Below, in pieces: positions 41,818 through 60,033 of a DNA stretch of 64,000 nt (within the stretch, counting starts at the first letter, position 1; each line of letters opens with the position of its first letter). This DNA comes from Rhizobiaceae bacterium (GTDB lineage Bacteria > Pseudomonadota > Alphaproteobacteria > Rhizobiales > Rhizobiaceae), in NCBI GenBank assembly GCA_040830725.1, contig JBFOMG010000004.1:7567-71566 (forward strand), in the 5' to 3' direction. The notes below the pieces were generated by a model that worked only from the letters and a program-made list of their open reading frames with translations, had not been told where the DNA came from and made no database searches. Position numbers and translations under genes: made by a program.

Positions 41818-41842
41818 CGTGGCATGTGCCCAGAAGAAGAAG

Positions 41843-45273: not shown

Positions 45274-46284
45274 ATGTCGAATCCAATTGATGCACTTATT
45301 GCGGAAAAAGGTGTGTTGCTTGCCGATGGCGCCACTGGCACCAATTTGTTTGCGATGGGCCTGGAGGCCGGCGAAGCCCCGGAACTCTGGAATGAAAGCG
45401 CACCCGACAAGATCCGCGCCCTGCATCAAGGTTTCGTCGATGCTGGCTCTGATATCATCCTGACCAACTCTTTTGGGGGCACCCGCCACCGCCTGAAGCT
45501 GCATCATGCTCAGGACCGGGTGTTCGAACTCAACAAACTGGCCGCGGAAATTGCCTGCGAGATTGCTGCGTCGGTCGAACGGACAATAATTGTGGCCGGC
45601 TCGGTAGGACCGACCGGGGAGTTGCTCCAACCATTGGGCACGCTTTCCTTCGAACAGACCATAGATGCTTTTGTCGAGCAGATAGAAGGCTTGAAGGCTG
45701 GCGGTGCCGAAGTTGCCTGGATTGAGACCATGTCGGCGCCAGACGAAATCCGCGCTGCAGCAGAGGCGGCGATTCGCGTTGGCCTGCCCTACACCTATAC
45801 CGGTTCATTCGATACGGCTGGCCGAACCATGATGGGCCTTCTGCCAAAGGATATTCATGGTGTGAACGAGGATCTTGCGGGTAAACCGGTAGCCGTTGGC
45901 GCAAATTGCGGAGTCGGTGCGTCGGACATATTGGCATCATTGCTGGATATGACCGAAGCGGACGATGACGCAACAATTATCGTCAAAGGCAATTGCGGCA
46001 TCCCGGAATTCCGTGGCTCCGAGATTCACTATTCCGGCACACCGGAGCTGATGGCGGAATATGTTCGAATGGCAATCGATGGCGGAGCAAAGATCATCGG
46101 CGGCTGTTGCGGAACGTCCTGTGATCATTTGAAAGCCATGCGTGCCGCGTTGGATAGCCACACCAAAGGTGCCCGGCCGACAATCGAAGATATTACCGCG
46201 CGCATCGGCCCCATGCGCAACAAGATCGCCAATCAGAATGAGCAAAGCGGCAGCCGCCGCGAACGGCGGAGGCGGAGAGCCTGA
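45274..46284 (+). CDS. stand-alone homocysteine S-methyltransferase domain protein (annotated type: betaine-homocysteine methyltransferase / MetH Hcy-binding module)
   Basis: 336 aa. LLADGATGTNL, ILTNSFGG, GANCG and IIGGCCGTS (zinc-binding Cys) motifs. C-terminal tail SGSRRERRRRRA. Confidence 0.85.
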   Translation: MSNPIDALIAEKGVLLADGATGTNLFAMGLEAGEAPELWNESAPDKIRALHQGFVDAGSDIILTNSFGGTRHRLKLHHAQDRVFELNKLAAEIACEIAASVERTIIVAGSVGPTGELLQPLGTLSFEQTIDAFVEQIEGLKAGGAEVAWIETMSAPDEIRAAAEAAIRVGLPYTYTGSFDTAGRTMMGLLPKDIHGVNEDLAGKPVAVGANCGVGASDILASLLDMTEADDDATIIVKGNCGIPEFRGSEIHYSGTPELMAEYVRMAIDGGAKIIGGCCGTSCDHLKAMRAALDSHTKGARPTIEDITARIGPMRNKIANQNEQSGSRRERRRRRA

Positions 46285-46379
46285 TTGAAAAAATTGACCG
46301 GCAGGTTGCCCCGCCGGCCAAATTTGGCTCCACAAAGAGCCCGCCCACAATTTGCTCCATCTTGCTCCGGTAATCAGTC

Positions 46380-48461
46380 TTAGTCCAACGCGTCGGCAAT
46401 GCGCACAAGCGACAGGAACTCGGCGCGGTATCCATAGGGGTCCGAGCCCCGTGCCGCCTGCGCCAACTTCAAAATCTCGTCGTAACCGTAGTTCGATGTC
46501 TGATCGGTATCACGAAGCTTTTGGCCGAATGCCGCCACCGCCACCGAGAAACGCTGATCATCACTTGCTGACCCAAGGCCATCGACTTCGTTGCTTACAG
46601 TCACGGGCGTCGTGATCAGCTTGCTTGTATCCTCATCGGGCAATTTGTAGCGCAGTTTCAGGAACGCATATTCATCTTCAACGCCAACTGGCCTATCGCC
46701 GTCAAATTGCACGGGTTTTTCGCCTTGCGCGTCCTGATTGGCTGCGTAACGCAGCGCGTCGCTGGTCACTGCCGGACTTCCGATCGGTGTGATCTCATAG
46801 ATTGCAGTCACAGAGTGACCGGAGCCGATATCGCCTGCGTCGATACGATCGTTGTTGAAATCCTCACGTTTCAGCGCACGGGTTTCATAACCGATCAGCC
46901 GGTATTCAGCGACACGGGCCGGATTGAACTCAACCTGGATCTTCACATCCTTGGCAATCGGGAAAAGTGTTGATCCGGCTTCCTCGACAAGCGTTTTTTG
47001 CGCCTCGGCGACCGTGTCGATGTAGGCAGCCTGCCCGTTACCGTTTTGCGCCAATGTTTGCATCAGCTGGTCGTTGTAATTGCCGTGACCAAACCCGAAT
47101 ACTGACAGAAAGATGCCGCTTTCGCGTTTTTTCTCGATGATCCGCTTTAGCGACGCATCGTCTGATACGCCGACATTGAAATCGCCGTCTGTTGCCAACA
47201 TGACACGATTGACGCCATCCTTGACGAAGGCCTGCTCCGCCAGCCGGTATGCCTGCTCGATTCCAGCCGCACCCGCTGTTGACCCCCTAGCCCCCAATGA
47301 ATCGATCACATTGAGAATTTTCGATTTCTCGGAAGCCTTTGTCGGCTCAAGCGCGGTGCCGGCGCTACCAGCGTAGGTCACGATGGATATCGTGTCTTCC
47401 GCATCAAGCCGGTCCAAAAGCATCCTGAAAGAGGTTTTCAATAGCGGCAATTTGTCGGGCTGGTTCATTGAACCGGACGTGTCGATCAGAAAGACAAGAT
47501 TGGCTCGCGGTTTTTCCGATGGCTGAACGTCATAGCCCTTGATCGCCACATGCATCAGCTTGGTGTTCTCATTCCACGGTGACGGCATGACCGTGACCGT
47601 GGAATTAAAAGGTACGGAAATGTTCTCAGGCCCGGCCCAATTGTAAGGAAAATAGTTGATCATTTCCTCAACACGCACCGCATCGGGATTAGGCATACCG
47701 TTTCGCATCAGCGCGCTTCGCACGAACGAATAGGAAGCCGTATCCACGTCGATAGAGAAAGTTGAGACTGGATCGCGCAACGCCTGCTTGACCGGATTGG
47801 TATCAAAATTCTCAAACCGGTCCCGGTTCTGCTCTTCGACGATCACCGGCTCTGGAAGCATGATACGACCCTTTTCGGCCAGCAACTTGGGTTGAGGCGC
47901 CGCTGCCTGCAGGGTTCCGACTGCGTTCGGCCGAGCCTCATCTGCCACGACCAGATTTTCAGCCTCGCGCAGACCATCGACTGCGCGCTCCTCTTTATCA
48001 GAGTCCGCGCGCCCGGCAGTAACCGTATCGACTTCGAGCTGTTGGCGAACCCGCTTGTCGTCAGCGCTGGTTGCCTCGCCTTTCAGTTTCTCTTCCTGCG
48101 GCCTGAAATTGGCGTCCTTCTTGCCGGCAGTCTCGTTTATATCGGCCGGCTCCAGCCTGTCGCCGATCGCAAACGGGGTCTCCTGTGCCAGATACCAAGC
48201 TGCATAGCCTGCGATTGGCAGTGCCAGAATTCCGGCAATTGTCGGTGTCGCACTCAATTTTCGTTCCATCATTGCTCTCCAAAAATCTGCCGCCCGTGAA
48301 CTCAGACGATTTCCAGAAGCTGATCCTTGGGTTGAACTTGAGAATTTTTGCTCGTCGAACGCATCCATTGCCGCTGAAAGCGCGGCGGCGCGCCGTTTTG
48401 CATCCGGTTTTTCCATGGGCATCTTGCCCAGCAGTTTCAATTCACGATCATCCATGATCAT
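46380..48461 (-). CDS. membrane-anchored anti-sigma-like N-terminus fused to a periplasmic von Willebrand factor A (YfbK-type) domain
   Basis: 693 aa. One TM segment (TIAGILALPIAGYAAWYL). VWA MIDAS motif DTSGSM. ATGA overlap with the ECF sigma gene. Confidence 0.8.
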   Translation of the reverse strand: MIMDDRELKLLGKMPMEKPDAKRRAAALSAAMDAFDEQKFSSSTQGSASGNRLSSRAADFWRAMMERKLSATPTIAGILALPIAGYAAWYLAQETPFAIGDRLEPADINETAGKKDANFRPQEEKLKGEATSADDKRVRQQLEVDTVTAGRADSDKEERAVDGLREAENLVVADEARPNAVGTLQAAAPQPKLLAEKGRIMLPEPVIVEEQNRDRFENFDTNPVKQALRDPVSTFSIDVDTASYSFVRSALMRNGMPNPDAVRVEEMINYFPYNWAGPENISVPFNSTVTVMPSPWNENTKLMHVAIKGYDVQPSEKPRANLVFLIDTSGSMNQPDKLPLLKTSFRMLLDRLDAEDTISIVTYAGSAGTALEPTKASEKSKILNVIDSLGARGSTAGAAGIEQAYRLAEQAFVKDGVNRVMLATDGDFNVGVSDDASLKRIIEKKRESGIFLSVFGFGHGNYNDQLMQTLAQNGNGQAAYIDTVAEAQKTLVEEAGSTLFPIAKDVKIQVEFNPARVAEYRLIGYETRALKREDFNNDRIDAGDIGSGHSVTAIYEITPIGSPAVTSDALRYAANQDAQGEKPVQFDGDRPVGVEDEYAFLKLRYKLPDEDTSKLITTPVTVSNEVDGLGSASDDQRFSVAVAAFGQKLRDTDQTSNYGYDEILKLAQAARGSDPYGYRAEFLSLVRIADALD

Positions 48462-49048
48462 TCTTCCCTGGCCCGTTTGGCCAAATCCTTGAGCCGCTTC
48501 TTCGCTTCATGGATGTGCCAGGAGATGGTCGTCTCGGCACATCCCAACACATCGCTCGCATCTCCGTGCGACAGGCCCTCGCCATAAACCAGCAATACCG
48601 CGTCGCGCTGTTTGGCGGGCAGTTGCTGTACCAGCCGCCACAGTTCTGCAGCTCGCGCTTCTTCATCACCGGCGCCGCTATCACCGAACAGCTTGCTGTG
48701 TTCACCCCAGGCCTCTGCCTTTACGGCCTCGCGATTGCTTTTGCGCAACAAGTCCCGGGCAGCGTTAATCGTCAATGCATAGAGCCAGGTGGTAAACCGG
48801 CTTTCGCCCTTGAAATTTTGGATTGCCCTGGCGAGCCGAACACAGACTTCCTGTGTGATATCCTCGGCGTTGGCACGATCGCCACACCAGCGCAGCGCCA
48901 CCCGAAAGACAAAGTCGTAGTGCCGCTCGACAAGCATGGCAAAGGCCGCACGGTCACCCTCGACCGCACGCCCCACCAATGCACCGTCTGACGTGGCATC
49001 CAACCCGCCTTCCGGCACCTCTGCTTCGGCAAGCGTCATGACCTTCAT
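48458..49048 (-). CDS. ECF-type RNA polymerase sigma-70 family factor
   Basis: 196 aa. Region 2 (HYDFVFRVALRW...AEDITQEV) and region 4 (LPAKQRDAVLLVYGEGLSHGDASDVLGCAETTISWHIHEAKKRL). Confidence 0.9.
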   Translation of the reverse strand: MKVMTLAEAEVPEGGLDATSDGALVGRAVEGDRAAFAMLVERHYDFVFRVALRWCGDRANAEDITQEVCVRLARAIQNFKGESRFTTWLYALTINAARDLLRKSNREAVKAEAWGEHSKLFGDSGAGDEEARAAELWRLVQQLPAKQRDAVLLVYGEGLSHGDASDVLGCAETTISWHIHEAKKRLKDLAKRAREE

Positions 49049-49102
49049 CGCCCTTTCGACGAATCGAATGGGCCGATCCTTTGGTTTTTTGATGAAAATA
49101 AT

Positions 49103-49801
49103 CTAATTCGGCGTGTTATTCGCCAAAAAAGCTGCCATGTGAAAGGCTTGAACCTCGGCTGGATACCGGTAATTGGCGCCGACGGGACACGAATTTCGGG
49201 CCAGGCAGCCAGTATTTCTGCAATGGCCATCATCTGCGGTTGAAACATGACCGGCGCAGCCCGCAACATCATAACCGTTCAGGGAGATTGCGCTAACAGG
49301 GCACGTGATCAGGCACGGCTTGTCTTCGCAATCATCGCATGGGTGGCTTGATTTTGGTGGTTGCGGAAGGCCAATCACATCATCAAACAACAATGCTCCA
49401 CGGTATGCATGCCAAAGCCCAAACTCGGGGTGAATCAGAATTCCCAAAGGTGACGGTCTCAACCCCTCTGCCCGACTTGCCCATTGCTGAAATGGCAGCC
49501 ATGGTTTGTCTGATGGAAACACAGCGCGTGCGGAACAGTCAGCAGCGACCACGCAAATGACTTCTCTCGACCACGTATCCAGAGGATTTTCTGGTTTATT
49601 TTTAAATTTTTGTAGCCATTTATTAAAGTGATTCCAATTTCCTGCGCCACGTTGTCCTACCAGCAATACGGACTTGGCAGGTTCGCTACGTATACCGGCT
49701 GGCGCATCCTCATCTTTTGCAAAATCGAAACCGCCTCGCAGAACAAGACCGTTTTCTGCCAGTGCCGCTGCTATCGATTTCAAAAAACCCGGTTCAGCCA
49801 C
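49103..49801 (-). CDS. ferredoxin-like protein with a C-terminal Cys-rich (4Fe-4S-type) region
   Basis: 232 aa. CDDCEDKPCLITCPVSAI followed by CAGH..CRNTGCLARNSCP. I do not recognise the N-terminal domain. Confidence 0.55.
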   Translation of the reverse strand: MAEPGFLKSIAAALAENGLVLRGGFDFAKDEDAPAGIRSEPAKSVLLVGQRGAGNWNHFNKWLQKFKNKPENPLDTWSREVICVVAADCSARAVFPSDKPWLPFQQWASRAEGLRPSPLGILIHPEFGLWHAYRGALLFDDVIGLPQPPKSSHPCDDCEDKPCLITCPVSAISLNGYDVAGCAGHVSTADDGHCRNTGCLARNSCPVGANYRYPAEVQAFHMAAFLANNTPN

Positions 49802-49865
49802 CTTCCTGATCCGGATCCTTGAACGCGGAGCGCCAGACTTCCTTGTGTATCATGTTGGCCACTTT

Positions 49866-49885
49866 AGCCCGGCCGTCCTCGGGCT
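49866..49885. terminator. hairpin abutting the MttB stop codon (weak terminator candidate)
   Basis: AGCCCG-8 nt-CGGGCT. The T-run lies on the plus strand, not on the strand of the gene it follows, so the function is uncertain. Confidence 0.3.
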
Positions 49886-49889
49886 TTTT

Positions 49890-51455
49890 TCACGTGAAAG
49901 CGTCGGGCATCGATTCCTTTTTCTTGGCAATGAATGCCTGCAACGCTTCATCAATGCCCGCATCGAGTTCAGGGGCCTGATAGCTGCTCAACCATTGGCG
50001 CGCCAATTCATTGGCCCTTTGATTTGCGGCTTTCTCACCTTCGGCCTGCCATTGCTCAAACGAATTGTTGTCGGCAATTGTCGAACGGTAGAAGGCGGTC
50101 TGAAAGTTCGCCTGCGTATGGCTGCAGCCAAGATAGTGGCTGCCCGGGCCAACTTCGCGAATGGCATCCAGCGCCTGGTCGTTCTCGGTCAGCGAAACAC
50201 CCTCGGCGATGCGCTGTTGCATGCCCAGTTGATCGATATCCATCATGAACTTTTCGTAGGAACTGACGAGGCCGCCTTCCAGCCAACCAGCGGCGTGAAG
50301 GACAAAATTCGTCCCTGCGAGCACTGTGGAGTTGATTGTGTTGGCGCTCTCATAGGCAGCCTGTGCATCGCTCAGTTTCGAACCACACAAGGACCCACCG
50401 GTTCGAAACGGCAATCCCAGTCTGCGCGCCAATTGTGCGGCTCCATAAGACACGAGTGTTGGCTCAGGGGTGCCGAAGGTCGGCGCACCCGATTGCATGG
50501 AAATTGAAGAGGCAAAAGTGCCAAACAATACCGGTGCACCTGGCCGGACCAATTGCGTAAACGCCGCGCCTGCCAAAACTTCAGCCAGAACCTGGGTCAG
50601 CGTTCCTGCCACGGTGACCGGGCTCATGGCACCGGCGAGGATGAACGGTGCGATAATGCAGGCCTGGTTGTTGCGGGCGTAAACCTTGGCCGCTCCAACC
50701 ATTGTCTCGTCAAAAACCATTGGTGAATTTGCATTGATAAGGCTGACCAACACAGTGTTGTCGGTAACAAACTGCTCGCCGAACAGGATCTTGCACATTT
50801 CGACAGTGTCCTCGGCGCGTTCAGGCGCTGTGACCGATCCCATGAACGGCTTGTCGGAATAACGGATATGGGAATAGATCATGTCGAGGTGGCGCTTGTT
50901 GACCGGTATGTCCACCGGTTCGCACACGGTGCCGCCTGAGTGATGTATTGCCGGCGCCATATAGGCCAGTTTCACAAAGTTGCGAAAATCCTCAATGGTT
51001 GCATACCGGCGCTCACCTTCGAGATCGCGTACAAATGGCGGCCCGTAGACAGGCACGAAGACGGTCGCATTGCCGCCAATCTGCACCGATCTTTCGGGGT
51101 TGCGCGCGTGTTGCGTAAAAACCGGAGGAGCGGATTTGATCAGCGCACGACACAGGCCTTTTGGAAAATGAACTCTTTCACCCTTAACCTCGGCACCAGC
51201 GTTCCGCCAGAGTTCCAGCGCCTCGGTATCATCGCGAAATTCAACACCAATTTCTTCCAGAATCGTATCAGCGTTGGCCTCGATCAGAGCCAGACCTTCG
51301 TCATCAAGCACTTCAAACGGCTTCAATGCCCGCTTTATGTAGGTCAACTGCGTTCCCGGCCCGCCTCCGGATCGTGCGGCGCGCCGGGCGGCCGCACCGC
51401 CACCCGCACGAGCACTGCGCCTTGATCTTCCGCCGTCTGCAGAAACTTCGTTCAT
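49890..51455 (-). CDS. MttB-superfamily (trimethylamine methyltransferase family) non-pyrrolysine methyltransferase, probable quaternary amine:corrinoid methyltransferase
   Basis: 521 aa, uninterrupted frame with no in-frame TAG. Family-typical TIM-barrel segments. N-terminal Arg/Gly/Ala-rich leader GGRSRRSARAGGGAAARRAARSGGG. Confidence 0.88.
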   Translation of the reverse strand: MNEVSADGGRSRRSARAGGGAAARRAARSGGGPGTQLTYIKRALKPFEVLDDEGLALIEANADTILEEIGVEFRDDTEALELWRNAGAEVKGERVHFPKGLCRALIKSAPPVFTQHARNPERSVQIGGNATVFVPVYGPPFVRDLEGERRYATIEDFRNFVKLAYMAPAIHHSGGTVCEPVDIPVNKRHLDMIYSHIRYSDKPFMGSVTAPERAEDTVEMCKILFGEQFVTDNTVLVSLINANSPMVFDETMVGAAKVYARNNQACIIAPFILAGAMSPVTVAGTLTQVLAEVLAGAAFTQLVRPGAPVLFGTFASSISMQSGAPTFGTPEPTLVSYGAAQLARRLGLPFRTGGSLCGSKLSDAQAAYESANTINSTVLAGTNFVLHAAGWLEGGLVSSYEKFMMDIDQLGMQQRIAEGVSLTENDQALDAIREVGPGSHYLGCSHTQANFQTAFYRSTIADNNSFEQWQAEGEKAANQRANELARQWLSSYQAPELDAGIDEALQAFIAKKKESMPDAFT

Positions 51456-51756
51456 AGCAATCCCTCAGAGCCATTCTTAACGGTCCAATCGCCCGTTTTC
51501 CAGAATCGTAGTTGACGTCTCGCGTTGAACGTTTCCGCCAACGCCAAGGCGTGTCGCAAAAGCGATAAGGCAGCAAGTGCGGAACTCCAATTCGAGCTGT
51601 CCAACTACGCCATTCAGGGACAGGCAAGGCAAAGTGGCGTTATCGTCGTCGCGCACGTCGCAATCCGGCTATGCCATTGGCATCTGGAGGAAATATGGAT
51701 AGTGAAGATATCACCATTGCGCACTGCGCCGGGCGAATCTGAGGGAGCCTCCGGAA

Positions 51757-52455
51757 ATGTCTGATGACGAAATCATTCTGTCCGAACTGAGTGACGACGA
51801 GCTCGTGCCGCAGATGCACGATGATCTTTATGACGGGCTGAAGGAGGAAATCGAGGAAGGTACCCAGATTCTGCTCGATCGTGGCTGGATGCCTTATGAT
51901 GTACTGACCAAAGCTCTGGTCGAAGGTATGCGCATCGTGGGTGAGGATTTCCGTGACGGTATCCTGTTTGTGCCGGAAGTCCTGCTATCAGCCAATGCGA
52001 TGAAGGCTGGCATGGCGATTCTGCGCCCACTGCTTGCGGAGACCGGCGCCCCAAAACTCGGCAAGATGGTCATTGGTACCGTCAAGGGTGATATTCACGA
52101 TATCGGTAAAAACCTCGTCGGCATGATGATGGAGGGAGCCGGCTTTGATGTGGTCGATCTCGGCATCAACAATCCGGTCGAAAACTATCTCGAGGCCATT
52201 GAGCGCGAGGAACCCGACATTGTCGGCATGTCGGCATTGCTCACAACAACCATGCCCTACATGAAAGTGGTCATCGATACGATGGTTGAGAAGGGCATCC
52301 GTGACGACTACGTCGTGCTTGTAGGTGGCGCCCCGCTGAACGAGGAATTCGGCAAGGCTGTTGGAGCCGACGCTTACTGCCGAGACGCTGCTGTAGCGGT
52401 TGAAACCGCCAAGGAGTTCATGTCGCGCCGTCACAATCAACGCGCCACTGCGTAA
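51757..52455 (+). CDS. corrinoid (cobalamin-binding) protein, cap helical domain plus B12-binding Rossmann domain
   Basis: 232 aa. DxHxxG motif GDIHDIGKNLV, then SALLTTT and GGAPL. N-terminal 35 aa contain 14 Asp/Glu and 1 Lys. Confidence 0.9.
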   Translation: MSDDEIILSELSDDELVPQMHDDLYDGLKEEIEEGTQILLDRGWMPYDVLTKALVEGMRIVGEDFRDGILFVPEVLLSANAMKAGMAILRPLLAETGAPKLGKMVIGTVKGDIHDIGKNLVGMMMEGAGFDVVDLGINNPVENYLEAIEREEPDIVGMSALLTTTMPYMKVVIDTMVEKGIRDDYVVLVGGAPLNEEFGKAVGADAYCRDAAVAVETAKEFMSRRHNQRATA

Positions 52456-52558
52456 ACTTTTGGGCATTGGCCGAGACTCGGCCATATCGGCGAGTGTTCC
52501 CGGCTGTGCGGATCTCACAATTTGAGCAATGCAGGATGTGTATGCGGGCTACACATGC

Positions 52559-52605
52559 AAAAAAATACCGCGCCGCGATGCCGCCGCTTGGCACCGGGCG
52601 CGGTA
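52559..52605 (-). terminator. strong minus-strand intrinsic terminator with no confidently annotated gene upstream of it
   Basis: On the minus strand: TACCGCGCC...GGCGCGGTA (9 bp), extended by a 7-bp inner stem (CGGTGCC/GGCATCG with one G-U), then T7. Confidence 0.7.
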
Positions 52606-53173: not shown

Positions 53174-53815
53174 TTGGACATTTCGACCCGAAAGAAGAGG
53201 CAAAACGGCGAAATCCGGACCCAAAAGGTCCGAATAATTGCCTGTGGAATGATCGCTCGTGAAGTTCTTGCAGTTAAAGAACGTCACGGACTGGAAAACC
53301 TGGATCTGGTGTGTTTACCGGCGCAATTTCACTATTACCCGGATCGTATCGCCCCGGCGATGGAAGAAGCGATTCAGCAGGCAAAAGAGGAAGGCGTTGA
53401 GCACATACTCGCCGGATATGCAGATTGTGGAACCGGCGGGCATCTTGATCTTGTCTGTGAAAAATACGGCATAGACCGAATCGACGGTCCTCATTGTTTT
53501 GCGTTCTATCAAGGCATGAAGTCCTACGAACAGGTTGCTGACGAGGACATGACGGCGTTCTACATGACTGATTTTTTGTGCCGGCAGTTTGACGCTTTTT
53601 TCATGAAACCGCTTGGCCTTGATAAGCACCCTGAACTGGCGAGCGACTATTTCGGCCACTATGAGAAACTGGTGTATCTTGCTCAGACGGATGACCCGTC
53701 TCTCGACCAGGTGGCTGAAGACGCGGCCAGAATGTTGGGACTTCGATACGAGCGTCGATATACGGGATATGGCGATTTGACGACATCACTGTTGGCCGCC
53801 ACCGCGACGCCATGA
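53174..53815 (+). CDS. DUF1638 domain protein
   Basis: 213 aa. VRIIACGMIAREV N-terminus and GYADCGTGG motif as I remember for DUF1638. TTG start 7 nt after AGGAG. Confidence 0.75.
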   Translation: MDISTRKKRQNGEIRTQKVRIIACGMIAREVLAVKERHGLENLDLVCLPAQFHYYPDRIAPAMEEAIQQAKEEGVEHILAGYADCGTGGHLDLVCEKYGIDRIDGPHCFAFYQGMKSYEQVADEDMTAFYMTDFLCRQFDAFFMKPLGLDKHPELASDYFGHYEKLVYLAQTDDPSLDQVAEDAARMLGLRYERRYTGYGDLTTSLLAATATP

Positions 53816-53915
53816 ATGTGTTATAGTGTGTGCGCCAGTTAACAGCAGATTTACGGGCGCGATGTAATCTTGTGCAGGGTATTTACCCACGCATGCGCGC
53901 CGAGGCATATGGACC

Positions 53916-54551
53916 ATGGACGACCTGACTGCTGACAGTGCCTTAAGAGCCAGCCCTGCGCCCCGGCGCCTGTCGGTGATAATCTCCCAACTGGCACAAA
54001 ATGCGACCGGTCCCGTGTCCATCGAGCAGATTCGCGATGCTTTGGGCGACCGGTCTTTTGCGGCAATGCTGGCGTTTTTCGCTGTATTGAACCTTGTGCC
54101 CTTCCCTCCAGGTACGACGTTAATCCTGGGACCGCCCCTGGTCATTGTCGCGGTCCAGATGGCGCTCGGCCACCATCGAGTGTGGTTGCCGAAATTTGTG
54201 CTTCGAAAATCCGTCAGCCGTGAGCGCTTCGTAGCCATGACTGAGCGGCACCTTCCAAGACTGCTGCGTTTGGAGACTTTGATTCGGCCGCGGCATTGGC
54301 CCTTTACCGACAGTGGTTTGGCTGATCGAATCATTGGATGGTTTGCGCTTGTTCTCTCCATTGCGGTCACCATCCCAATCCCCCTCGGCAACTGGCTGCC
54401 TGCACTCGGTATCCTGTTGATTGCATTCGCACTTTCCGAGCGTGACGGAATCCTTTTCTATGCTGGGGTGTTCGTGGGCACGTTGGCACTTGTTGTCATC
54501 GCTGCGGTGATTGGTGCTGCTGGAGCAGCCGCAGGCATTCTGTTTGGCTGA
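53916..54551 (+). CDS. ExoD-family membrane protein
   Basis: 211 aa. LGDRSFAAMLAFFAVLNLVPFPPG and TM-rich C-terminus are typical of ExoD. Confidence 0.8.
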   Translation: MDDLTADSALRASPAPRRLSVIISQLAQNATGPVSIEQIRDALGDRSFAAMLAFFAVLNLVPFPPGTTLILGPPLVIVAVQMALGHHRVWLPKFVLRKSVSRERFVAMTERHLPRLLRLETLIRPRHWPFTDSGLADRIIGWFALVLSIAVTIPIPLGNWLPALGILLIAFALSERDGILFYAGVFVGTLALVVIAAVIGAAGAAAGILFG

Positions 54552-54684
54552 AACCCGGTTTTCCCAGTTCATACGCCCGCGTCGTTTTTGAATTTGCCGG
54601 TGTCGTCCTGTAAACAGCGGCAAAGCGGCCCTTCCGGCAATTGTCCGCGCAACTATCAGGCCGCTGTTTTGTTGGGAACTGACC

Positions 54685-54987
54685 ATGGCTGATCTCACCA
54701 TCGTCTATTGGCGCGATATTCCCGCGCAGGTCATTGTCAAGAAGGGTCGCGCAAATGCCAAGCGCGAACTTCCGCTTCGATTCACAGAAGCAATTGATAT
54801 GTGTGCCATGCGTTCCGGTGCTGACGATACCGATGCCTATCTCGCCGAATGGCGCCGGGGAGAACCTGTTTCAGTTGGAGATGACCTCGAGATCGAAGCT
54901 GACAAGGCGATGAACGAAATCGATTCCGCCTATCCCAAGGATCGGCTGGTGGCGTTGGTCAATGCCGGTGGTATCGACAATGGCTAA
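54685..54987 (+). CDS. small conserved protein of the family usually annotated 'virulence factor' domain, found next to MTHFR_C genes
   Basis: 100 aa. MADLTIVYWRDIPAQVIVKKGR. Overlaps the next gene by 8 nt (ATGGCTAA). Confidence 0.55.
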   Translation: MADLTIVYWRDIPAQVIVKKGRANAKRELPLRFTEAIDMCAMRSGADDTDAYLAEWRRGEPVSVGDDLEIEADKAMNEIDSAYPKDRLVALVNAGGIDNG

Positions 54988-55564
54988 AAATACACCAATC
55001 GTCACTCAGGCAACCAAGGTGCGTAAAGCCGCGCCAAAGCTTGCGTATAAACCGGCGCATGTCAGTCCGACTCAACGGTTGCGCAAGGGATATACAATCA
55101 GGCTTTGGTCGGTACGGCATTCCCGCAGCCTGGAGTGGCTCTATGAGCAGTTCGCCAATATCTTTTTGATGCTGCACCCATTCTGGAAGGCGGTCGGCTA
55201 CCATCGCGCCGAAAAGCCGGTGACGTTTGTGGAAAGGCGTGTCAAGGGCCTATTGTTCGACTGCCGCATGTGTGGACAGTGCATCTTGTCGTCGACGGGC
55301 ATGTCTTGTCCCATGAATTGCCCAAAACAGCTTCGCAACGGCCCATGCGGTGGCGTTCGTGCTGACGGCAATTGCGAAGTCGAGCCTGACATGCCTTGTG
55401 TTTGGGTTCAGGCGTGGGAAGGCGCTGAGCGCATGCGGGAAGGTGAGCAGAACCTCGCAGCAGTGCAAAAGCCGGTCGACCAATCTTTGCGGGAAACCTC
55501 TTCCTGGTTGCGGGTAACGGCATCTGCAGCGGCTGAACGAGCCGCCAAGAATGGTGGCAAGTAA
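54980..55564 (+). CDS. methylenetetrahydrofolate reductase C-terminal-domain protein (MetV-like, Cys-rich)
   Basis: CRMCGQCILSSTGMSCPMNCPKQLRNGPCGG motif. ATG at 54980 preferred over track start 54962. Confidence 0.8.
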   Translation: MAKNTPIVTQATKVRKAAPKLAYKPAHVSPTQRLRKGYTIRLWSVRHSRSLEWLYEQFANIFLMLHPFWKAVGYHRAEKPVTFVERRVKGLLFDCRMCGQCILSSTGMSCPMNCPKQLRNGPCGGVRADGNCEVEPDMPCVWVQAWEGAERMREGEQNLAAVQKPVDQSLRETSSWLRVTASAAAERAAKNGGK

Positions 55565-56667
55565 TGCAAAACGGTAAGCGACCACCTCAACGGGACGAAA
55601 ATCCAGCCGGTATCGATCTGCCGCTCGATCCACTGCCCGGCCATACATCACGCAGCCGTCTTGAGCGGATTCTTCGCCGTGGAGAGTTTGCTGTCACAAC
55701 CGAACTCAACCCTCCAGACAGCGCCAATCCGGAGGACGTCTACGAGCGCGTAGCCATCTTCGATGGCTGGGTCGATGGTATCAACGCTGTCGATGCGTCG
55801 GGTGCAAACTGCCACATGTCTTCTGTCGGCATCTGCGCGCTTCTGACCCGCATGGGTTATGCACCGATCCTGCAAATTGCTTGTCGTGACAAAAACCGTA
55901 TTGCCATTCAGGGTGACGTGCTCGGCGCTGCTGCCATGGGTGTTGCCAACATACTCTGCCTGACCGGAGATGGCGTGCAGGCAGGAGACCAACCTGGCGC
56001 AAAGCCCGTCTTCGATCTCGATTGCATGAGCCTTTTGGAGACCATTCGCACCATGCGCGATGAGTCGAAGTTTTTGTCAGGCCGCAAACTGACGACGCCG
56101 CCGGAAGTATTTCTGGGCGCGGCAATCAATCCGTTTGCCCCGCCCTATGATTTCCGCCCGCTGCGTCTGGCAAAGAAGATCGCGGCCGGTGCCCAGTTCG
56201 TTCAAAGCCAGTATTGCTTTGACGTGCCGATGTTCCGTGAATACATGAAACGGGTCAACGACATGGGGTTGACCGAGGAGTGTTTCGTGATGTGCGGCGT
56301 CGGTCCCCTGGCTTCAGCCAAGACCGCACGTTGGATCAGGTCAAATGTTCCCGGAATTCATATCCCCGACCAGGTTATCGAACGGCTGGAAGGCGCCGAA
56401 AACCAAAAGCAGGAGGGGAAGCGTCTTTGCATCGACATCATCAATGAGGTCAAAGAGATCGAAGGCGTATCCGGCGTCCACGTCATGGCCTATCGGCAGG
56501 AAGAGTTTGTTGCTGAAATCGTCCACGATTCCGGTGTGTTGAGGGGTCGCAAGCCATGGCAACGTGAACCCCGCGCTGACGATGTGCTGGTTGCCGAAAG
56601 GTTGGAAGAAGTATTGCAGAATCCATCCGCGGAAAGCCCCGCGGATGTCATCAGGGACACCGTCTAG
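55564..56667 (+). CDS. metF: methylenetetrahydrofolate reductase catalytic subunit
   Basis: 367 aa. FAVTTELNPP, ILQIACRDKNR and ILCLTGD motifs. TAATG overlap with the MetV-like gene. Confidence 0.88.
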   Translation: MQNGKRPPQRDENPAGIDLPLDPLPGHTSRSRLERILRRGEFAVTTELNPPDSANPEDVYERVAIFDGWVDGINAVDASGANCHMSSVGICALLTRMGYAPILQIACRDKNRIAIQGDVLGAAAMGVANILCLTGDGVQAGDQPGAKPVFDLDCMSLLETIRTMRDESKFLSGRKLTTPPEVFLGAAINPFAPPYDFRPLRLAKKIAAGAQFVQSQYCFDVPMFREYMKRVNDMGLTEECFVMCGVGPLASAKTARWIRSNVPGIHIPDQVIERLEGAENQKQEGKRLCIDIINEVKEIEGVSGVHVMAYRQEEFVAEIVHDSGVLRGRKPWQREPRADDVLVAERLEEVLQNPSAESPADVIRDTV

Positions 56668-56692
56668 CGACGGTTGAAACCAATCACACAGC

Positions 56693-56714
56693 GATATAAA
56701 GAAATCTTTATATC
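56693..56714. promoter_or_regulatory. 22-bp palindrome GATATAAAGA-AA-TCTTTATATC, candidate operator immediately upstream of the pterin-binding methyltransferase gene
   Basis: 10-bp perfect arms read directly from the sequence. It lies between the metF stop (56667) and the ATG at 56728, and has the same core as the site at 45226-45241. Confidence 0.5.
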
Positions 56715-56727
56715 ATTGGAGAAAATA

Positions 56728-57702
56728 ATGACACGCACAGTCGTAGCATCCGCCTCAAAAGAGATCATCATCGGTTTCGACCAGCCATTCTGCGTCATCG
56801 GTGAGAGAATAAATCCGACCGGTCGAAAAAAGCTCGCCGCGGAGATGAATGAAGGCAACTTTGAAACCGTCAAGAAAGACGCACTTGAGCAAGTCGCCGC
56901 TGGTGCAACAATGCTCGACGTCAATGCAGGTGTCACCGCTGTTGATCCAAACGTGACCGAGCCTCCGCTTCTCGTAAAGACGCTGGAGATCGTTCAGGAA
57001 CTCGTCGATGTGCCGCTCTCGATCGACAGCTCCGTAACGGCTGCAATCGAGGCTGGCCTCAAGGTTGCCAAGGGCCGTCCTCTGGTCAACTCGGTTACCG
57101 GTGAAGAGGAAAAGCTCGAAGCGATTTTGCCTCTGATAAAGAAATACGACGTGCCGGTTGTCGCTATCTCCAATGATGAAACGGGAATCTCCGAGGACCC
57201 GGATGTGCGCTTCGAGGTTGCCAAGAAAATTGTTGAGCGTGCCGCCGATTTTGGCATTCCCGCACATGACATTGTTGTCGATCCGCTGGTGATGCCGATC
57301 GGTGCAATGGGCACTGCGGGAAAGCAGGTGTTTGCACTGCTGCGCCGCTTGCGCGAAGAACTCAAAGTCAACACGACCTGCGGTCTTTCCAACATCTCGT
57401 TCGGCCTGCCGCACCGGCATGGGATCAATGCGGGCTTCATTCCGATGGTTATCGGCGCCGGCATGACATCGGCCATCATGAATCCCTGCCGCCCGCAGGA
57501 GATGGAGGCTGTCCGCGCCGCAAATGTTCTGAACGGAACTGATCCGGACTGCATGACCTGGATTCGCACTTACAAGGACTATCAGCCGCATGCGCCTGGT
57601 GCACCGGCCGCGGCCAATGCCAATCCGGCCGCCAGTGGCGCGTCGGGCGGACGTTCGGGCCGCCGTGGCGGCCGCGCAGCCAGAGCTGGCGCGAGGGGCT
57701 AG
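56728..57702 (+). CDS. methyltetrahydrofolate:corrinoid methyltransferase (pterin-binding domain, MtrH/AcsE/MetH-module type)
   Basis: GERINPTGRKK, LDVNAG, SIDSS, VNSV and GLSNISFGLP motifs. C-terminal tail SGGRSGRRGGRAARAGARG. GGAGAA RBS. Confidence 0.88.
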   Translation: MTRTVVASASKEIIIGFDQPFCVIGERINPTGRKKLAAEMNEGNFETVKKDALEQVAAGATMLDVNAGVTAVDPNVTEPPLLVKTLEIVQELVDVPLSIDSSVTAAIEAGLKVAKGRPLVNSVTGEEEKLEAILPLIKKYDVPVVAISNDETGISEDPDVRFEVAKKIVERAADFGIPAHDIVVDPLVMPIGAMGTAGKQVFALLRRLREELKVNTTCGLSNISFGLPHRHGINAGFIPMVIGAGMTSAIMNPCRPQEMEAVRAANVLNGTDPDCMTWIRTYKDYQPHAPGAPAAANANPAASGASGGRSGRRGGRAARAGARG

Positions 57703-57808
57703 AGCAATCTCGAATGTTCAACCGGAAACCGGGAAGACGGTTCTGACGATATTGGAAAGCCGTCTTCCGCACGAGCCAACACGCATCAATTGCGACGACA
57801 GCTCTGCC

Positions 57809-58000
57809 ATGGATGCACAGACGATATGCTTCGCAGACCGCGATACGGGTGAGGAATTCGATCACTTTCTTGCCGACACGGCCGTGAAAGATGAAACGAT
57901 CTTCCTGCGCACAGACGACGTTGCAAAACTTGTTGATCCGACAACGGAAGTGGTGATTTATGACGCCGTCGCGGATAGTGAAAAGCGATGGCGGAAATGA
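57809..58000 (+). CDS. possible 63-aa acidic protein between the methyltransferase and activase genes
   Basis: ATG-initiated part of track ORF 57590..58000: MDAQTICFADRDTGEEFDHFLADTAVKDETIFLRTDDVAKLVDPTTEVVIYDAVADSEKRWRK. Its stop overlaps the activase start by 13 nt. No clear RBS. Confidence 0.3.
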   Translation: MDAQTICFADRDTGEEFDHFLADTAVKDETIFLRTDDVAKLVDPTTEVVIYDAVADSEKRWRK

Positions 58001-60033
58001 CCGATCCCCTCATTCTCTTCATGCCATCGGGCAAACGCGGGCGATTTCCCGCGGGAACGCCCATTCTCGATGCGGCGCGCGAACTGGGCGTGTATGTGGA
58101 GAGCGTCTGCGGTGGACGTGGCATCTGCGGGCGTTGCCAGATCGAAGTCCAGGAAGGCCAATTCGCCAAACATGGCATTACCTCAGCCAAGGACCACATT
58201 TCACCGGTCGGTTCGAAGGAAACCCGTTACGCCGAAAAGCGTACGTTGAAGCCGGGACGACGCCTCTCCTGTTCATCGACCATCATTGGAGATCTCGTTA
58301 TCGATGTGCCTGCCGATGCGCAGGTCAACGAACAAGTCGTGCGCAAAGCAGCGATCGATCGTGTCATCGAACGCAATCCCGCCGTTCAGCTTTGCTATGT
58401 CGAGGTTGACGAACCCGACATGCACAAACCGCTTGGAGATCTCGACCGTCTTGAGGCGGTTTTGGAAGCCGATTGGGGCTGGAAGGACCTCCTTGTTTCC
58501 CAACATCTGCTCCCGGATGTGCAGAAGATACTGCGTAAGGGCGGCTGGGCAGCAACTGCCGCCATCCACATGGATTTGGAATCGTCGCGGCCGTCAATCG
58601 TTGCACTATGGCCTGGTTTGAAAAACGAAGCCTATGGAATTGCTTGCGATATCGGCTCGACCACGATCGCCATGCACCTTGTGTCGCTGCTTTCCGGCCG
58701 GATCATCGCGTCTTCCGGTACATCCAATCCGCAGATCCGTTTTGGCGAAGACCTGATGAGCCGGGTTTCATATGTAATGATGAATCCGGACGGGCGCGAA
58801 GCCATGACCAGGGCGGTTCGCGAGGCAATCAACGATCTCATAGCGAAAGTCTGCGAGGAAGGTGGGATCACACCCGAAGACATTTTGGACGCGGTGTTCG
58901 TCGGCAATCCGATCATGCATCACCTGTTTCTCGGAATTGACCCGACCGAGCTGGGCCAGGCTCCGTTCGCGCTTGCCGTGTCTGGTGCGGTTCATACCTG
59001 GGCAAGCGAGATTGGTCTCGACATCAATCAGGGTTCGCGTGTGTACATCTTGCCGTGCATTGCCGGTCATGTAGGCGCCGACGCCGCAGCCGCCACGTTG
59101 TCTGAAGGGCCGCACCGTCAAGACAGCATGATGTTGTTGGTCGATGTCGGAACCAATGCAGAGATCGTGCTGGGAAACTCAAACCGTGTTGTGGCAGCCT
59201 CATCTCCGACCGGCCCGGCTTTCGAGGGTGCTGAAATATCGTCAGGGCAACGGGCAGCGCCTGGCGCCATAGAACGGGTGCGCATTGATCCGGAAACCCT
59301 GGAGCCGAGATTTCGGGTTATCGGCGTGGACCATTGGTCTGACGAAGAAGAATTTGCCGATGCAGCCGAGAAGACTGGCGTCACCGGCATTTGCGGTTCT
59401 GCAATCATTGAAGTTGTCGCCGAGATGTACCTGGCAGGCATCATCTCCGAGGATGGTGTCGTCGACGGAAGTCTCGCTGCAAGAAGTTCCCGGATCATCG
59501 CCGACGGCCGAACCTTCTCCTATCTGGTTCACGAGGGGAACCAGAAAATCACCGTTACCCAGAATGATGTTCGCGCCATACAGCTGGCAAAGGCAGCACT
59601 TTATGCGGGCATCAAGCTGTTGATGCAAAAACAGGATGTGGAATCCGTTGACGTCATTCGCTTCGCTGGTGCGTTCGGCTCCTTCATTGATCCGAAATAC
59701 GCAATGGTTCTGGGATTGATCCCCGATTGCGATCTCGGCGAGGTGAAGGCTGTCGGCAACGCCGCCGGAACCGGCGCTCTCATAGCATTGCTCAATCGAG
59801 ACTACCGGCGTGAGATCGAGACCACAGTCCGCAGAATCGAGAAAATCGAAACCGCCCTAGAGCCGGACTTCCAGCAATTATTCGTCAACGCGATGGCGAT
59901 GCCAAACAAGGTCGATCCTTTTCCCAAATTGGGGAAGCAGGTGGCACTGCCGGAGCGCAAAGTGCTTGAAACTGCGGAGACCAATGGAGGAAGACGCAGA
60001 CGGCGCGACGGCGGGCGGCGCAGTCGCAGTTAG
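57988..60033 (+). CDS. corrinoid reductive activase (RamA/RACo type): N-terminal 2Fe-2S ferredoxin plus ASKHA ATPase domain
   Basis: 681 aa. CGGRGICGRCQIEV plant-type ferredoxin motif. DIGSTTIAMHLV and VDVGTNAEIVLG ASKHA phosphate-binding motifs. C-terminal tail GGRRRRRDGGRRSRS. Confidence 0.88.
   Translation: MAEMTDPLILFMPSGKRGRFPAGTPILDAARELGVYVESVCGGRGICGRCQIEVQEGQFAKHGITSAKDHISPVGSKETRYAEKRTLKPGRRLSCSSTIIGDLVIDVPADAQVNEQVVRKAAIDRVIERNPAVQLCYVEVDEPDMHKPLGDLDRLEAVLEADWGWKDLLVSQHLLPDVQKILRKGGWAATAAIHMDLESSRPSIVALWPGLKNEAYGIACDIGSTTIAMHLVSLLSGRIIASSGTSNPQIRFGEDLMSRVSYVMMNPDGREAMTRAVREAINDLIAKVCEEGGITPEDILDAVFVGNPIMHHLFLGIDPTELGQAPFALAVSGAVHTWASEIGLDINQGSRVYILPCIAGHVGADAAAATLSEGPHRQDSMMLLVDVGTNAEIVLGNSNRVVAASSPTGPAFEGAEISSGQRAAPGAIERVRIDPETLEPRFRVIGVDHWSDEEEFADAAEKTGVTGICGSAIIEVVAEMYLAGIISEDGVVDGSLAARSSRIIADGRTFSYLVHEGNQKITVTQNDVRAIQLAKAALYAGIKLLMQKQDVESVDVIRFAGAFGSFIDPKYAMVLGLIPDCDLGEVKAVGNAAGTGALIALLNRDYRREIETTVRRIEKIETALEPDFQQLFVNAMAMPNKVDPFPKLGKQVALPERKVLETAETNGGRRRRRDGGRRSRS

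What the first reader, a model, noticed from the sequence alone, without database searches (positions are those of the whole stretch)
45274..60033. Arg/Gly-rich terminal tails on exactly the four enzymes that must dock on the corrinoid protein, which itself has a poly-acidic N-terminus
**Tails seen directly in the translations**
- The stand-alone homocysteine methyltransferase ends in SGSRRERRRRRA (46252-46281).
- The MttB-family methyltransferase begins with GGRSRRSARAGGGAAARRAARSGGG (51360-51434, minus strand).
- The pterin-binding methyl-THF:corrinoid methyltransferase ends in SGGRSGRRGGRAARAGARG (57643-57699).
- The RamA/RACo activase ends in GGRRRRRDGGRRSRS (59986-60030).

**Why this is striking**
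- These are four unrelated folds, with tails at either terminus and no DNA-level repeat, so the feature is convergent at the protein level.
- Their one shared property is that each must transiently bind the same corrinoid protein (51757-52455).
- The first 35 residues of that protein carry 14 Asp/Glu and one Lys (MSDDEIILSELSDDELVPQMHDDLYDGLKEEIEEG).
- MetF, MetV, ExoD and most of the roughly 60 other CDS in the window lack such tails. Weaker basic termini occur in FdhD (RHLRRGARRAAAE) and DUF1638 (N-terminal KKRQNGEIRTQK).

**Inference**
- The tails may act as electrostatic tethers that replace the covalent linkage of modules seen in single-chain MetH. They would recruit donor, acceptor and repair enzymes to one acidic corrinoid carrier.
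- I am not aware of this being described, but I cannot search the literature here.
Basis: partly seen in the sequence, partly recalled or inferred. Interest (0 to 1): 0.85.

Follow-up and report, generated by a model that had tools for sequence, protein, structure and literature searches.

The report
Arginine tails on corrinoid-protein partner enzymes
In a known split vitamin-B12 methyltransferase system, every enzyme that must dock on the small B12-carrier protein has a conserved arginine-rich end, and the carrier has a matching, clade-specific acidic cap, which suggests an undescribed electrostatic docking code that has not been shown biochemically.

Summary
The genes form the known MtgBCDE/RamA system, a split methionine synthase and glycine-betaine methyltransferase.

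**Conservation.**
- The four Arg/Gly tails are conserved in every orthologue examined: MtgE 55/55, MtgD 46/46, RamA 43/43, and MttB-type N-termini in about 60 proteins.
- This covers Hyphomicrobiales, Rhodobacterales and four more distant metagenomic lineages.
- Tail sequences drift, but composition is kept. They are Arg-rich with almost no Lys.

**Background and controls.**
- Among 1,209 other ORFs in the same loci, 1.2% have such a C-terminus.
- MetF, MetV, DUF1638, PF13769 and orf232 have none.

**The carrier.**
- The MtgC N-terminus is nearly invariant, with net charge −13 in 35 residues.
- AlphaFold places most of this charge on helices 1-2 of the B12 cap domain, not on a disordered tail.

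**Co-variation.**
- Sister systems have the same five proteins, but their corrinoid protein lacks the acidic cap. These comprise about 25 loci of one clade, a Gemmatimonadota type, and structures from anaerobes.
- All of them lack the tails.

Physical binding is untested, and the correlation traces essentially to one clade. I found no mention of the tails in the papers searched.

The parts
45274..46284 (+). MtgE-like stand-alone homocysteine S-methyltransferase (PF02574)
   Evidence: Pfam match E 7e-60. NCBIfam NF005718 covers residues 1-335. 55 orthologues found in the loci.
46246..46281 (+). MtgE C-terminal Arg tail, SGSRRERRRRRA
   Evidence: 55/55 orthologues end in [RK]ERRxRR[RG][AG]-like tails, even at 53% overall identity. 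Median 6 Arg and 0 Lys in the last 15 residues.
49103..49801 (-). Conserved Cys-rich ORF (orf232) next to the MttB gene. It has no tail and serves as a negative control. Its function is unassigned.
   Evidence: No Pfam or NCBIfam hit. Present in 50/80 loci. C-terminal net charge median +1.
49890..51455 (-). MttB-superfamily (PF06253) non-pyrrolysine methyltransferase, MtgB-like
   Evidence: Pfam match E 4e-238. 80% identical to PDB 4YYC.
51360..51434 (-). MttB N-terminal Arg/Gly tag, GGRSRRSARAGGGAAARRAARSGGG
   Evidence: Conserved as GRRxRG..GGAAARRAARSGGGPG in orthologues and as RRGGRxARRxxR in paralogues down to 28% identity. Absent from D. hafniense MtgB and from the non-acidic sister clade.
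51757..52455 (+). MtgC corrinoid carrier protein (B12-binding_2 cap plus B12-binding Rossmann domain)
   Evidence: Pfam. 83-93% identical across 80 species. AlphaFold2 pLDDT 92.
51757..51861 (+). Acidic N-terminal 35 residues of MtgC: a short extension plus cap helices 1-2
   Evidence: Net charge -13. The sequence M[SA]DDEIILSELSD[DE]ELVQQMHDDLYDGLKEEIEEG is nearly invariant. The extra negative charge is confined to this segment: the remaining part of the protein has the same median charge, -7, in acidic and non-acidic relatives.
53174..53815 (+). DUF1638 protein (negative control: no conserved tail)
   Evidence: Pfam. N-terminus not conserved. Present in both tailed and tail-less systems.
54685..54987 (+). 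PF13769 small protein (negative control)
   Evidence: Pfam. C-terminal net charge median +1.
54962..56667 (+). MetV (DUF5981) and MetF (MTHFR), pathway enzymes that do not dock on MtgC and have no tails
   Evidence: Pfam. C-terminal net charge medians are +1 for MetV and -3 for MetF.
56674..57702 (+). MtgD pterin-binding methyl-THF:corrinoid methyltransferase (likely start ATG 56728)
   Evidence: Pfam PF00809. Structural homologues (AcsE/MeTr) end at query residue ~301. Shine-Dalgarno sequence before 56728.
57643..57699 (+). MtgD C-terminal Arg/Gly tail, SGGRSGRRGGRAARAGARG, preceded by a Pro/Ala linker
   Evidence: 46/46 complete orthologues carry GGRR(R)GGR[EA]AR. The tail is kept at 60-65% identity in L088-L091. 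0/26 in non-acidic systems.
57988..60033 (+). RamA/RACo-type ATP-dependent reductive activase (Fer2, RACo linker, RACo middle and ASKHA domains)
   Evidence: Pfam. PDB 3ZYY aligns to query residue 640.
59986..60030 (+). RamA C-terminal Arg tail, GGRRRRRDGGRRSRS
   Evidence: 43/43 complete orthologues carry GGRRRRRSRE or PRRRSREERAARR. 100% of 48 sequences in acidic-cap systems have 5 or more Arg, against 0/16 in non-acidic systems.

Best explanation
The region encodes the known MtgBCDE/RamA system. One small corrinoid carrier (MtgC) shuttles a methyl group between several separately encoded enzymes: the MttB-family substrate methyltransferases, the pterin methyltransferase MtgD and the homocysteine methyltransferase MtgE. 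RamA re-reduces it.

**Shown here.**
- Every one of these partners carries a short terminal segment, probably disordered, made almost only of Arg, Gly, Ala and Ser.
- These segments are under selection for composition rather than sequence.
- The MtgC clade they serve has about 10 extra negative charges, concentrated in its first 35 residues. These are a 7-12-residue extension plus the solvent faces of cap-domain helices 1 and 2.
- Homologous systems without the acidic cap lack all the tails.

**Inferred.**
- The tails act as interchangeable docking tags. They make dynamic, multivalent Arg-carboxylate contacts with the acidic cap.
- This would overcome repulsion between the acidic partner cores (net -7 to -25) and acidic MtgC (net -22).
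- It would raise the encounter rate and hold the cap aside while the cobalamin face enters the partner's barrel.
- All partners carry a similar low-specificity tag, so they could compete and exchange quickly. That would substitute for the covalent tethering of modules in single-chain MetH.
- Any MttB paralogue bearing the tag would gain access to the same hub.
For: **Conservation of the tails.**
- MtgE 55/55, MtgD 46/46 and RamA 43/43; MttB orthologues.
- Paracoccus.
- Four more distant acidic-cap lineages in which partners are only 58-65% identical and tail sequences differ, but Arg richness persists.
- MttB paralogues down to 28% identity keep R..GGR.ARR.LR.
- The same RRGGRxAR core occurs at the MttB N-terminus and the MtgD C-terminus.

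**Specificity.**
- 1.2% background among 1,209 ORFs.
- MetF, MetV, PF13769, DUF1638 and orf232 controls have neutral termini.
- Tails use Arg, with a Lys median of 0.

**The receptor candidate.**
- The MtgC N-terminus is nearly invariant.
- The excess negative charge is localised there: N-region median -12 against -2, and remaining part of the protein -7 in both groups.
- It is structured as amphipathic cap helices.

**Co-variation.**
- Acidic-cap systems have 5 or more Arg in 98% of MttB, 85% of MtgD, 100% of RamA and 98% of MtgE termini.
- Non-acidic systems: 0/26 MtgD, 0/16 RamA, 0/6 MtgE, and 2/13 MttB, the last being ORF-extended and therefore an upper bound.
- Spearman rho is -0.63 over 115 loci.
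- One lineage with a half-acidic cap (net -9) has a short RPRERRTR tail on RamA.
- Homologues from anaerobes with solved structures (D. hafniense MtgB, AcsE/MeTr, RACo) end before or begin after the tail positions.
- DUF1638 and PF13769 occur in tail-less systems too, so they are not the co-varying partner.
Against: - There is no direct evidence of binding. A multimer prediction was not possible with these tools.
- All acidic-cap MtgCs form one clade (55% identity or more). Phylogenetically, the co-variation is close to a single event plus two intermediates.
- One CmuA-like system (L087) has its corrinoid domain fused and non-acidic. Its partners still have weakly basic, Lys-containing ends on RamA and MtgD. 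That contig is low-coverage and frameshifted.
- A few MttB paralogues in tag-bearing taxa lack the tag or have ambiguous starts.
- Arg/Gly-rich tails are also typical of RNA-binding or condensate-forming segments.
- The partner cores are themselves acidic, so the tails could fold back on their own proteins.
Confidence: 0.5

Rival explanations
1. The tails bind a different polyanion, such as RNA, the nucleoid, polyphosphate or acidic membrane lipids. This would co-localise the pathway enzymes in a condensate or at a surface, and the acidic cap of MtgC would be recruited to, or unrelated to, that assembly.
For: The Arg/Gly-rich composition with almost no Lys resembles RG/RGG segments known, from general knowledge, to bind RNA and drive phase separation. 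All partners share the feature whichever terminus carries it.
Against: - MetF and MetV act in the same pathway but do not dock on MtgC, and they lack tails.
- Tail presence tracks the charge of the MtgC cap across lineages.
- The tails have no hydrophobic or amphipathic element expected of membrane-targeting sequences.
- Nothing else in about 1,200 neighbouring ORFs shares the feature.
Confidence: 0.15
2. The tails act within each enzyme or homo-oligomer, for example in solubility, oligomer stabilisation, autoinhibition on the enzyme's own acidic surface, or turnover signalling. The match with the MtgC cap would be coincidental clade history.
For: - Partner cores are acidic, net -7 to -25.
- In archaeal MttB, the N-terminal 22 residues form strands that stabilise the oligomer (PMC9842639).
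- The co-variation is essentially one clade.
Against: - Four unrelated folds (five counting MttB paralogues) acquired the same composition at either terminus in the same lineage that acquired the acidic cap.
- The archaeal MttB N-terminus is not Arg-rich, and D. hafniense MtgB lacks the segment entirely.
- The sister clade has the same domain cores but no tails.
Confidence: 0.15
3. The tails are neutral by-products: GC-driven Arg-rich terminal extensions, mis-called starts or stops, or assembly artefacts.
For: Off-frame ORFs in this 56% GC DNA are often Arg-rich.
Against: - Stop codons are unambiguous, and the MttB start is supported by a Shine-Dalgarno sequence and by orthologues.
- Conservation is 100% in more than 140 orthologous termini, against a 1.2% background.
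- The tails are absent in the sister clade of non-acidic systems, even though its off-frame and upstream ORF translations are often Arg-rich.
- The NCBIfam and Pfam profiles extend into the tails.
Confidence: 0.03

Closest known systems
MtgBCDE/RamA split methionine synthase and glycine-betaine methyltransferase of aerobic marine and soil Alphaproteobacteria (Mausz et al. 2025, PMC12478193; Price et al. 2018, PMC5764234)
   Same: The gene set is the same: stand-alone MtgC, MttB-family MtgB, pterin-binding MtgD, homocysteine methyltransferase MtgE, RamA, DUF1638, and MetF2/MetV next door. MtgC is 84-86% identical to Ruegeria MtgC. S. meliloti is described in that paper as having the same co-localised arrangement.
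   Different: Nothing differs in gene content; this window is another member. The Arg tails and the acidic cap are not mentioned in these papers or in the MtgB and MttB structure papers.
Single-chain cobalamin-dependent methionine synthase MetH
   Same: It has the same four activities and the same cap-plus-Rossmann B12 module that must visit each substrate domain in turn.
   Different: In MetH the modules are covalently linked. Here they are separate proteins. The canonical MetH genes seen in Tritonibacter and Phyllobacterium show no such tails at the MetH C-terminus.
MtaB-MtaC and MttB-MttC complexes of methanogens
   Same: A corrinoid protein docks its cobalamin face onto a TIM-barrel methyltransferase. 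In MtaC, an extra N-terminal helical domain grips the partner (PMC9842639).
   Different: There, recognition uses folded surfaces or oligomer loops. No Arg-rich terminal tails or acidic cap are described in that paper. The bacterial anaerobe D. hafniense MtgB lacks the tail segment entirely.
Acidic carrier or hub proteins that serve many partners electrostatically: acyl carrier protein helix II with basic patches, and the acidic C-terminal tip of SSB (general knowledge, not tested here)
   Same: One small, very acidic, highly conserved hub is visited by many unrelated enzymes through charge complementarity.
   Different: Here the basic element is a terminal, low-complexity Arg tail on each partner rather than a folded basic patch. 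The polarity is also opposite to SSB, where the hub carries the tail.
RACo-CoFeSP activation complex (PDB 4C1N, 3ZYY)
   Same: RamA shares the Fer2, linker, middle and ASKHA architecture and must bind its corrinoid protein to reduce Co(II).
   Different: RACo aligns only to query residue 640 (chain residue 621 of 631). The window protein has a further ~41 residues ending in the Arg tail.

Membership tests
MtgBCDE/RamA split methionine synthase and GBT methyltransferase | Stand-alone corrinoid protein with B12-binding_2 cap and B12-binding domain, closely related to R. pomeroyi / P. inhibens MtgC | tested here: met
   Pfam PF02607 and PF02310. 84-86% identity to Ruegeria spp. loci L072 and L079.
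MtgBCDE/RamA split methionine synthase and GBT methyltransferase | Separate genes for an MttB-family (PF06253) methyltransferase, a pterin-binding methyltransferase (PF00809) and a homocysteine S-methyltransferase (PF02574) | tested here: met
   All three are found as separate ORFs with strong Pfam matches.
MtgBCDE/RamA split methionine synthase and GBT methyltransferase | RamA/RACo-type reductive activase and DUF1638 associated with the system | tested here: met
   Pfam RACo domains plus Fer2, and PF07796. The same neighbours occur in 46 and 73 of 80 loci respectively.
MtgBCDE/RamA split methionine synthase and GBT methyltransferase | Genetic requirement of mtgC/mtgD for methionine prototrophy and growth on glycine betaine | not testable with these tools
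   Shown for R. pomeroyi in PMC12478193.
NCBIfam glycine-betaine-specific corrinoid protein MtgC (anaerobe type, NF047995/NF047996) | Score above the curated cut-off of the model | tested here: not met
   202 and 178 bits, against cut-offs of 370 and 310. This agrees with the separate phylogenetic position reported in PMC12478193.
Canonical single-chain MetH | Hcy, pterin, cap/B12 and activation domains in one polypeptide | tested here: not met
   The domains lie in separate ORFs spread over 15 kb, on both strands.
Twin-arginine (Tat) signal peptide (considered for the MttB N-terminus) | S/T-R-R-x-F-L-K motif followed by a hydrophobic h-region and a cleavage site | tested here: not met
   The Arg segment is followed by SGGGPGTQLTYIKR and the enzyme core, with no hydrophobic stretch. 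Three of the four tails are C-terminal.
RG/RGG-type RNA-binding or condensate-forming disordered segment | Arg/Gly-rich low-complexity composition | tested here: inconclusive
   The composition fits: Arg median 5-7, Gly median 2-7 and Lys 0 in the last 15-20 residues. The segments are only 10-25 residues long, and few have canonical RGG triplets.
RG/RGG-type RNA-binding or condensate-forming disordered segment | Demonstrated nucleic-acid binding or phase separation | not testable with these tools
   No assay is available.
Electrostatic carrier-hub docking (ACP-like) | Small, strongly acidic, highly conserved carrier serving many partners | tested here: met
   MtgC has net charge -22 and is 83-93% identical across two orders, while its partners are 53-80% identical.
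Electrostatic carrier-hub docking (ACP-like) | Physical contact between the acidic element of the carrier and the basic element of each partner | not testable with these tools
   Only clade-level co-variation is available.

The most novel reading that the evidence does not exclude
The Arg tail and the acidic cap form a modular docking code. Any methyltransferase that acquires a terminal RRGGRxARR-like tag becomes a client of the single MtgC 'methyl carrier protein'.

This would explain three things:
- how a split B12 system works without covalent tethering;
- why MtgC is frozen at 83-93% identity across orders;
- how roseobacters and rhizobia could expand to many MttB paralogues, all feeding one corrinoid hub.
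Probability: 0.4. Interest if true: 0.75.

Novelty: new variant of a known kind. Interest (0 to 1): 0.62.

Why it matters
The MtgBCDE system was recognised only recently as a major route for glycine-betaine demethylation and methionine synthesis in abundant marine bacteria. How one corrinoid protein finds and switches between up to ten separate partners is an open question.

A conserved tag-and-cap pair gives a concrete, cheap experimental handle: tail deletions, Arg-to-Lys swaps and cap charge reversals.

It also has practical uses:
- It offers a sequence signature for predicting which MttB-family paralogues and other enzymes are clients of MtgC.
- It separates the aerobic acidic-cap systems from look-alike systems in metagenomes.
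- It is a possible design principle for building split B12 methyltransferase pathways.

Tried and rejected
- **The search for homologous proteins with MtgC.** It returned only relatives at 88% identity or more and gave no view of distant lineages. The representative search did.
- **Contexts of P0153 and P0132.** These were uninformative: one is an unrelated neighbourhood and the other a frameshifted contig.
- **Plasmid hits H25 and H30.** These turned out to be canonical MetH, not independent corrinoid systems.
- **Unfiltered scan for Arg-rich windows in all stop-to-stop ORFs.** It was swamped by off-frame and antisense ORFs and was abandoned in favour of the greedy non-overlapping ORF set.
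- **FdhD orthologues.** None are in the fetched loci, so the FdhD tail was not evaluated.
- **DUF1638 and PF13769 as alternative tail receptors.** Rejected because both occur in tail-less systems.
- **Tat signal, degradation tag and membrane anchor.** Considered and rejected on sequence grounds.
- **Complex prediction of MtgC with a partner.** Not possible, because chimeric or multi-chain inputs are not accepted.

Full report
**What is there.**

ORF listing and Pfam scans show that window 45274-60033 holds these genes:
- a stand-alone homocysteine S-methyltransferase (45274-46284, +);
- an MttB-family methyltransferase (49890-51455, -);
- a corrinoid protein with cap and Rossmann B12 domains (51757-52455, +);
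- DUF1638;
- a PF13769 small protein;
- MetV and MetF;
- a pterin-binding methyltransferase (56674-57702, +; probable true start ATG 56728);
- a RamA/RACo-type activase (57988-60033, +).

This is the gene set described as the split methionine synthase of Phaeobacter inhibens (PMC5764234). It is also the dual-function MtgBCDE glycine-betaine methyltransferase and methionine synthase of Ruegeria pomeroyi, where the corrinoid protein MtgC is the shared core (PMC12478193). The window's MtgC is 83-93% identical to that of 80 species of Hyphomicrobiales and Rhodobacterales. The gene system itself is therefore already known.

- The four tails and the acidic N-terminus are present as described. The only correction is a two-codon offset for the MtgE tail.
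- The MttB N-terminal tail is inside the CDS. Its ATG has a GAGGGA ribosome-binding site, and all orthologues begin further upstream.
- In the window, only MtgE, RamA, MtgD and FdhD reach 5 Arg in a terminal 12-mer, and MttB has 7 Arg in 25 residues.
- No DNA repeats connect the tail-coding segments.

**The tails are conserved and specific.**

In the 80 genomic loci fetched around MtgC:
- All 55 MtgE orthologues end in [RK]ERRxRR[RG][AG]-like tails. This holds even in Rhodobacteraceae, where the enzyme is only about 53% identical and the preceding linker differs.
- All 46 complete MtgD orthologues end in GGRR(R)GGR[EA]AR.
- All 43 complete RamA orthologues end in GGRRRRRSRE or PRRRSREERAARR.
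- MttB orthologues carry GRRxRG..GGAAARRAARSGGGPG.
- MttB paralogues as distant as 28% identity still begin with R..GGR.ARR.LR. They come from P. inhibens, Cereibacter sphaeroides, Leisingera and S. meliloti pSymA.
- The same RRGGRxAR core sits at the MttB N-terminus and the MtgD C-terminus.

Controls and homologues:
- Only 15 of 1,209 other ORFs in the same loci have 5 or more Arg in their last 12 residues, and most of these look like spurious frames.
- Pathway neighbours that do not dock on MtgC have neutral ends: MetF, MetV, PF13769, DUF1638 and the Cys-rich orf232.
- The tails are almost purely Arg, with a Lys median of 0.
- Solved structures of homologues from anaerobes stop short of the tails. 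D. hafniense MtgB begins at query residue ~42. AcsE/MeTr ends at ~301. RACo aligns only to query residue 640.

**The carrier.**

- The first 35 residues of MtgC (net -13) are nearly invariant across 80 species.
- AlphaFold2 (pLDDT 92) predicts residues 1-7 as coil. Residues 13-25 and 29-41 form the first two helices of the four-helix cap.
- The 'acidic N-terminus' is therefore a short extension plus the acidic faces of folded cap helices, not a floppy tail.
- Among 50%-identity representatives, every relative at 55% identity or more carries the motif D..L..L.D[DE]EL..Q[MV]HDDLY[DN]GL, apart from two. Those at 52% or less do not.
- The extra negative charge is confined to this segment. The N-region median is -12 against -2, while the remaining part of the protein has median -7 in both groups.

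Acidic-cap lineages beyond the 80 genomes are the Paracoccus plasmid and metagenomic contigs L088-L091. They keep Arg-rich ends on MtgD, RamA and MttB, although these partners are only 58-65% identical and the tail sequences differ.

Homologous systems whose corrinoid protein is not acidic lack the tails:
- A clade sampled in about 25 metagenomic loci has an MtgC-like protein at 44-50% identity. Its neighbours are MttB-, MtgD-, RamA- and MtgE-like genes.
- In that clade MtgD ends ..WIAAHRARQAAAA, RamA ends ..DFNDRFVDQLAFPG and MtgE ends ..ANALADGAID.
- A Gemmatimonadota-type system also lacks them.

Counts:

| Partner | Acidic-cap systems with 5 or more Arg | Non-acidic systems |
|---|---|---|
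| MttB | 98% | 2/13 (upper bound from ORF extension) |
| MtgD | 85% | 0/26 |
| RamA | 100% | 0/16 |
| MtgE | 98% | 0/6 |

- One lineage with a half-acidic cap (net -9) has a short RPRERRTR end on RamA.
- One CmuA-like fusion without the acidic N-terminus has only weak, Lys-containing basic ends.
- DUF1638 and PF13769 occur in tail-less systems too, so they are not the co-varying element.

**Interpretation.**

The best-supported reading is that the tails are selected docking tags for the acidic cap of MtgC.
- The partner cores are acidic (net -7 to -25) and so is MtgC (net -22). A cationic tail would offset repulsion, speed encounter, and could hold the cap aside while the cobalamin face enters the partner barrel.
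- Similar low-specificity tags on all partners would allow fast exchange, functionally replacing the covalent tether of MetH.
- These mechanistic steps are inference.
- All acidic-cap MtgCs form one clade, so the co-variation is close to a single historical event plus two intermediates.
- Against coincidence, four or five unrelated protein families acquired the same composition at different termini in that one lineage.

Rival readings:
- Binding to RNA, polyphosphate or another polyanion.
- An intramolecular or oligomeric role.
- Neutral extension, which is effectively excluded by the conservation and background counts.

**Novelty.**

Full-text searches and reading found no mention of these tails or of the acidic cap. 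The sources were the two MtgBCDE papers, the MtgB active-site paper and the MttB-MttC structure paper. The library is incomplete, so prior description elsewhere cannot be excluded. I rate this as a previously unremarked, well-supported feature of a known system: a new variant of electrostatic carrier-hub docking. It has clear and inexpensive experimental tests.

Noticed in passing
window 49103-49801 (-): A Cys-rich 232-aa ORF (CDDCEDKPC...C..C..C) with no Pfam or NCBIfam match. It lies next to the MttB gene in 50 of 80 related genomes, and in Paracoccus it is annotated as hypothetical. It could be an unassigned Fe-S partner of the system.
   Followed up: partly
window 41819-42736 (+): The FdhD-like protein ends RHLRRGARRAAAE. 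It is the only non-Mtg terminus in the window with 5 or more Arg in 12 residues, and it loosely resembles the RRGxRR tag. No orthologues were in the fetched loci, so its conservation is unknown.
   Followed up: partly
L092/L093 (gene at 10001-10981 of L092); window 54685-54987: In Gemmatimonadota-type systems, the PF13769 'Virulence_fact' domain is fused to the C-terminus of the corrinoid protein. In the window it is a separate small gene in the cluster. This points to a direct role of this uncharacterised domain with the corrinoid protein.
   Followed up: no
L087 1694-3481 and 9355-11142: Two copies of a URO-D::corrinoid fusion (CmuA-like, 57% identical to MtgC in the B12 part) are flanked by transposase genes. 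DUF1638, PF13769, a pterin methyltransferase and RACo lie between them.
   Followed up: partly
L089 12799-16317: A single 1,172-aa gene call joins RACo and MTTB domains. The junction holds both a RamA-type Arg tail (GRRRRRQ) and an MttB-type tag (RSRRSGGRAGRQ). It may be a real fusion or an assembly frameshift.
   Followed up: partly
window 45274-46284; 51757-52455: The NCBIfam 'betaine--homocysteine S-methyltransferase' equivalog NF005718 matches MtgE end to end, including the tail. PMC12478193 argues that these proteins are MtgE modules, not true BHMT. The window MtgC falls well below the cut-offs of both NCBIfam MtgC models.
   Followed up: partly
L184 (Mesorhizobium WSM1497 plasmid), L181 (S. 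meliloti pSymB), L182 (Halomicrococcus): Some MttB-family members lack the N-terminal tag (pSymB copy, haloarchaeal copy). One has an annotated start that may cut off an upstream GERRGRR segment. These may be MtgC-independent enzymes or mis-annotated starts.
   Followed up: partly
L082 11535-13360 (Paracoccus aminovorans plasmid IV): A family 1 encapsulin shell gene with a Dyp-type peroxidase cargo lies about 7 kb from the mtg cluster. It is probably unrelated to the finding.
   Followed up: no
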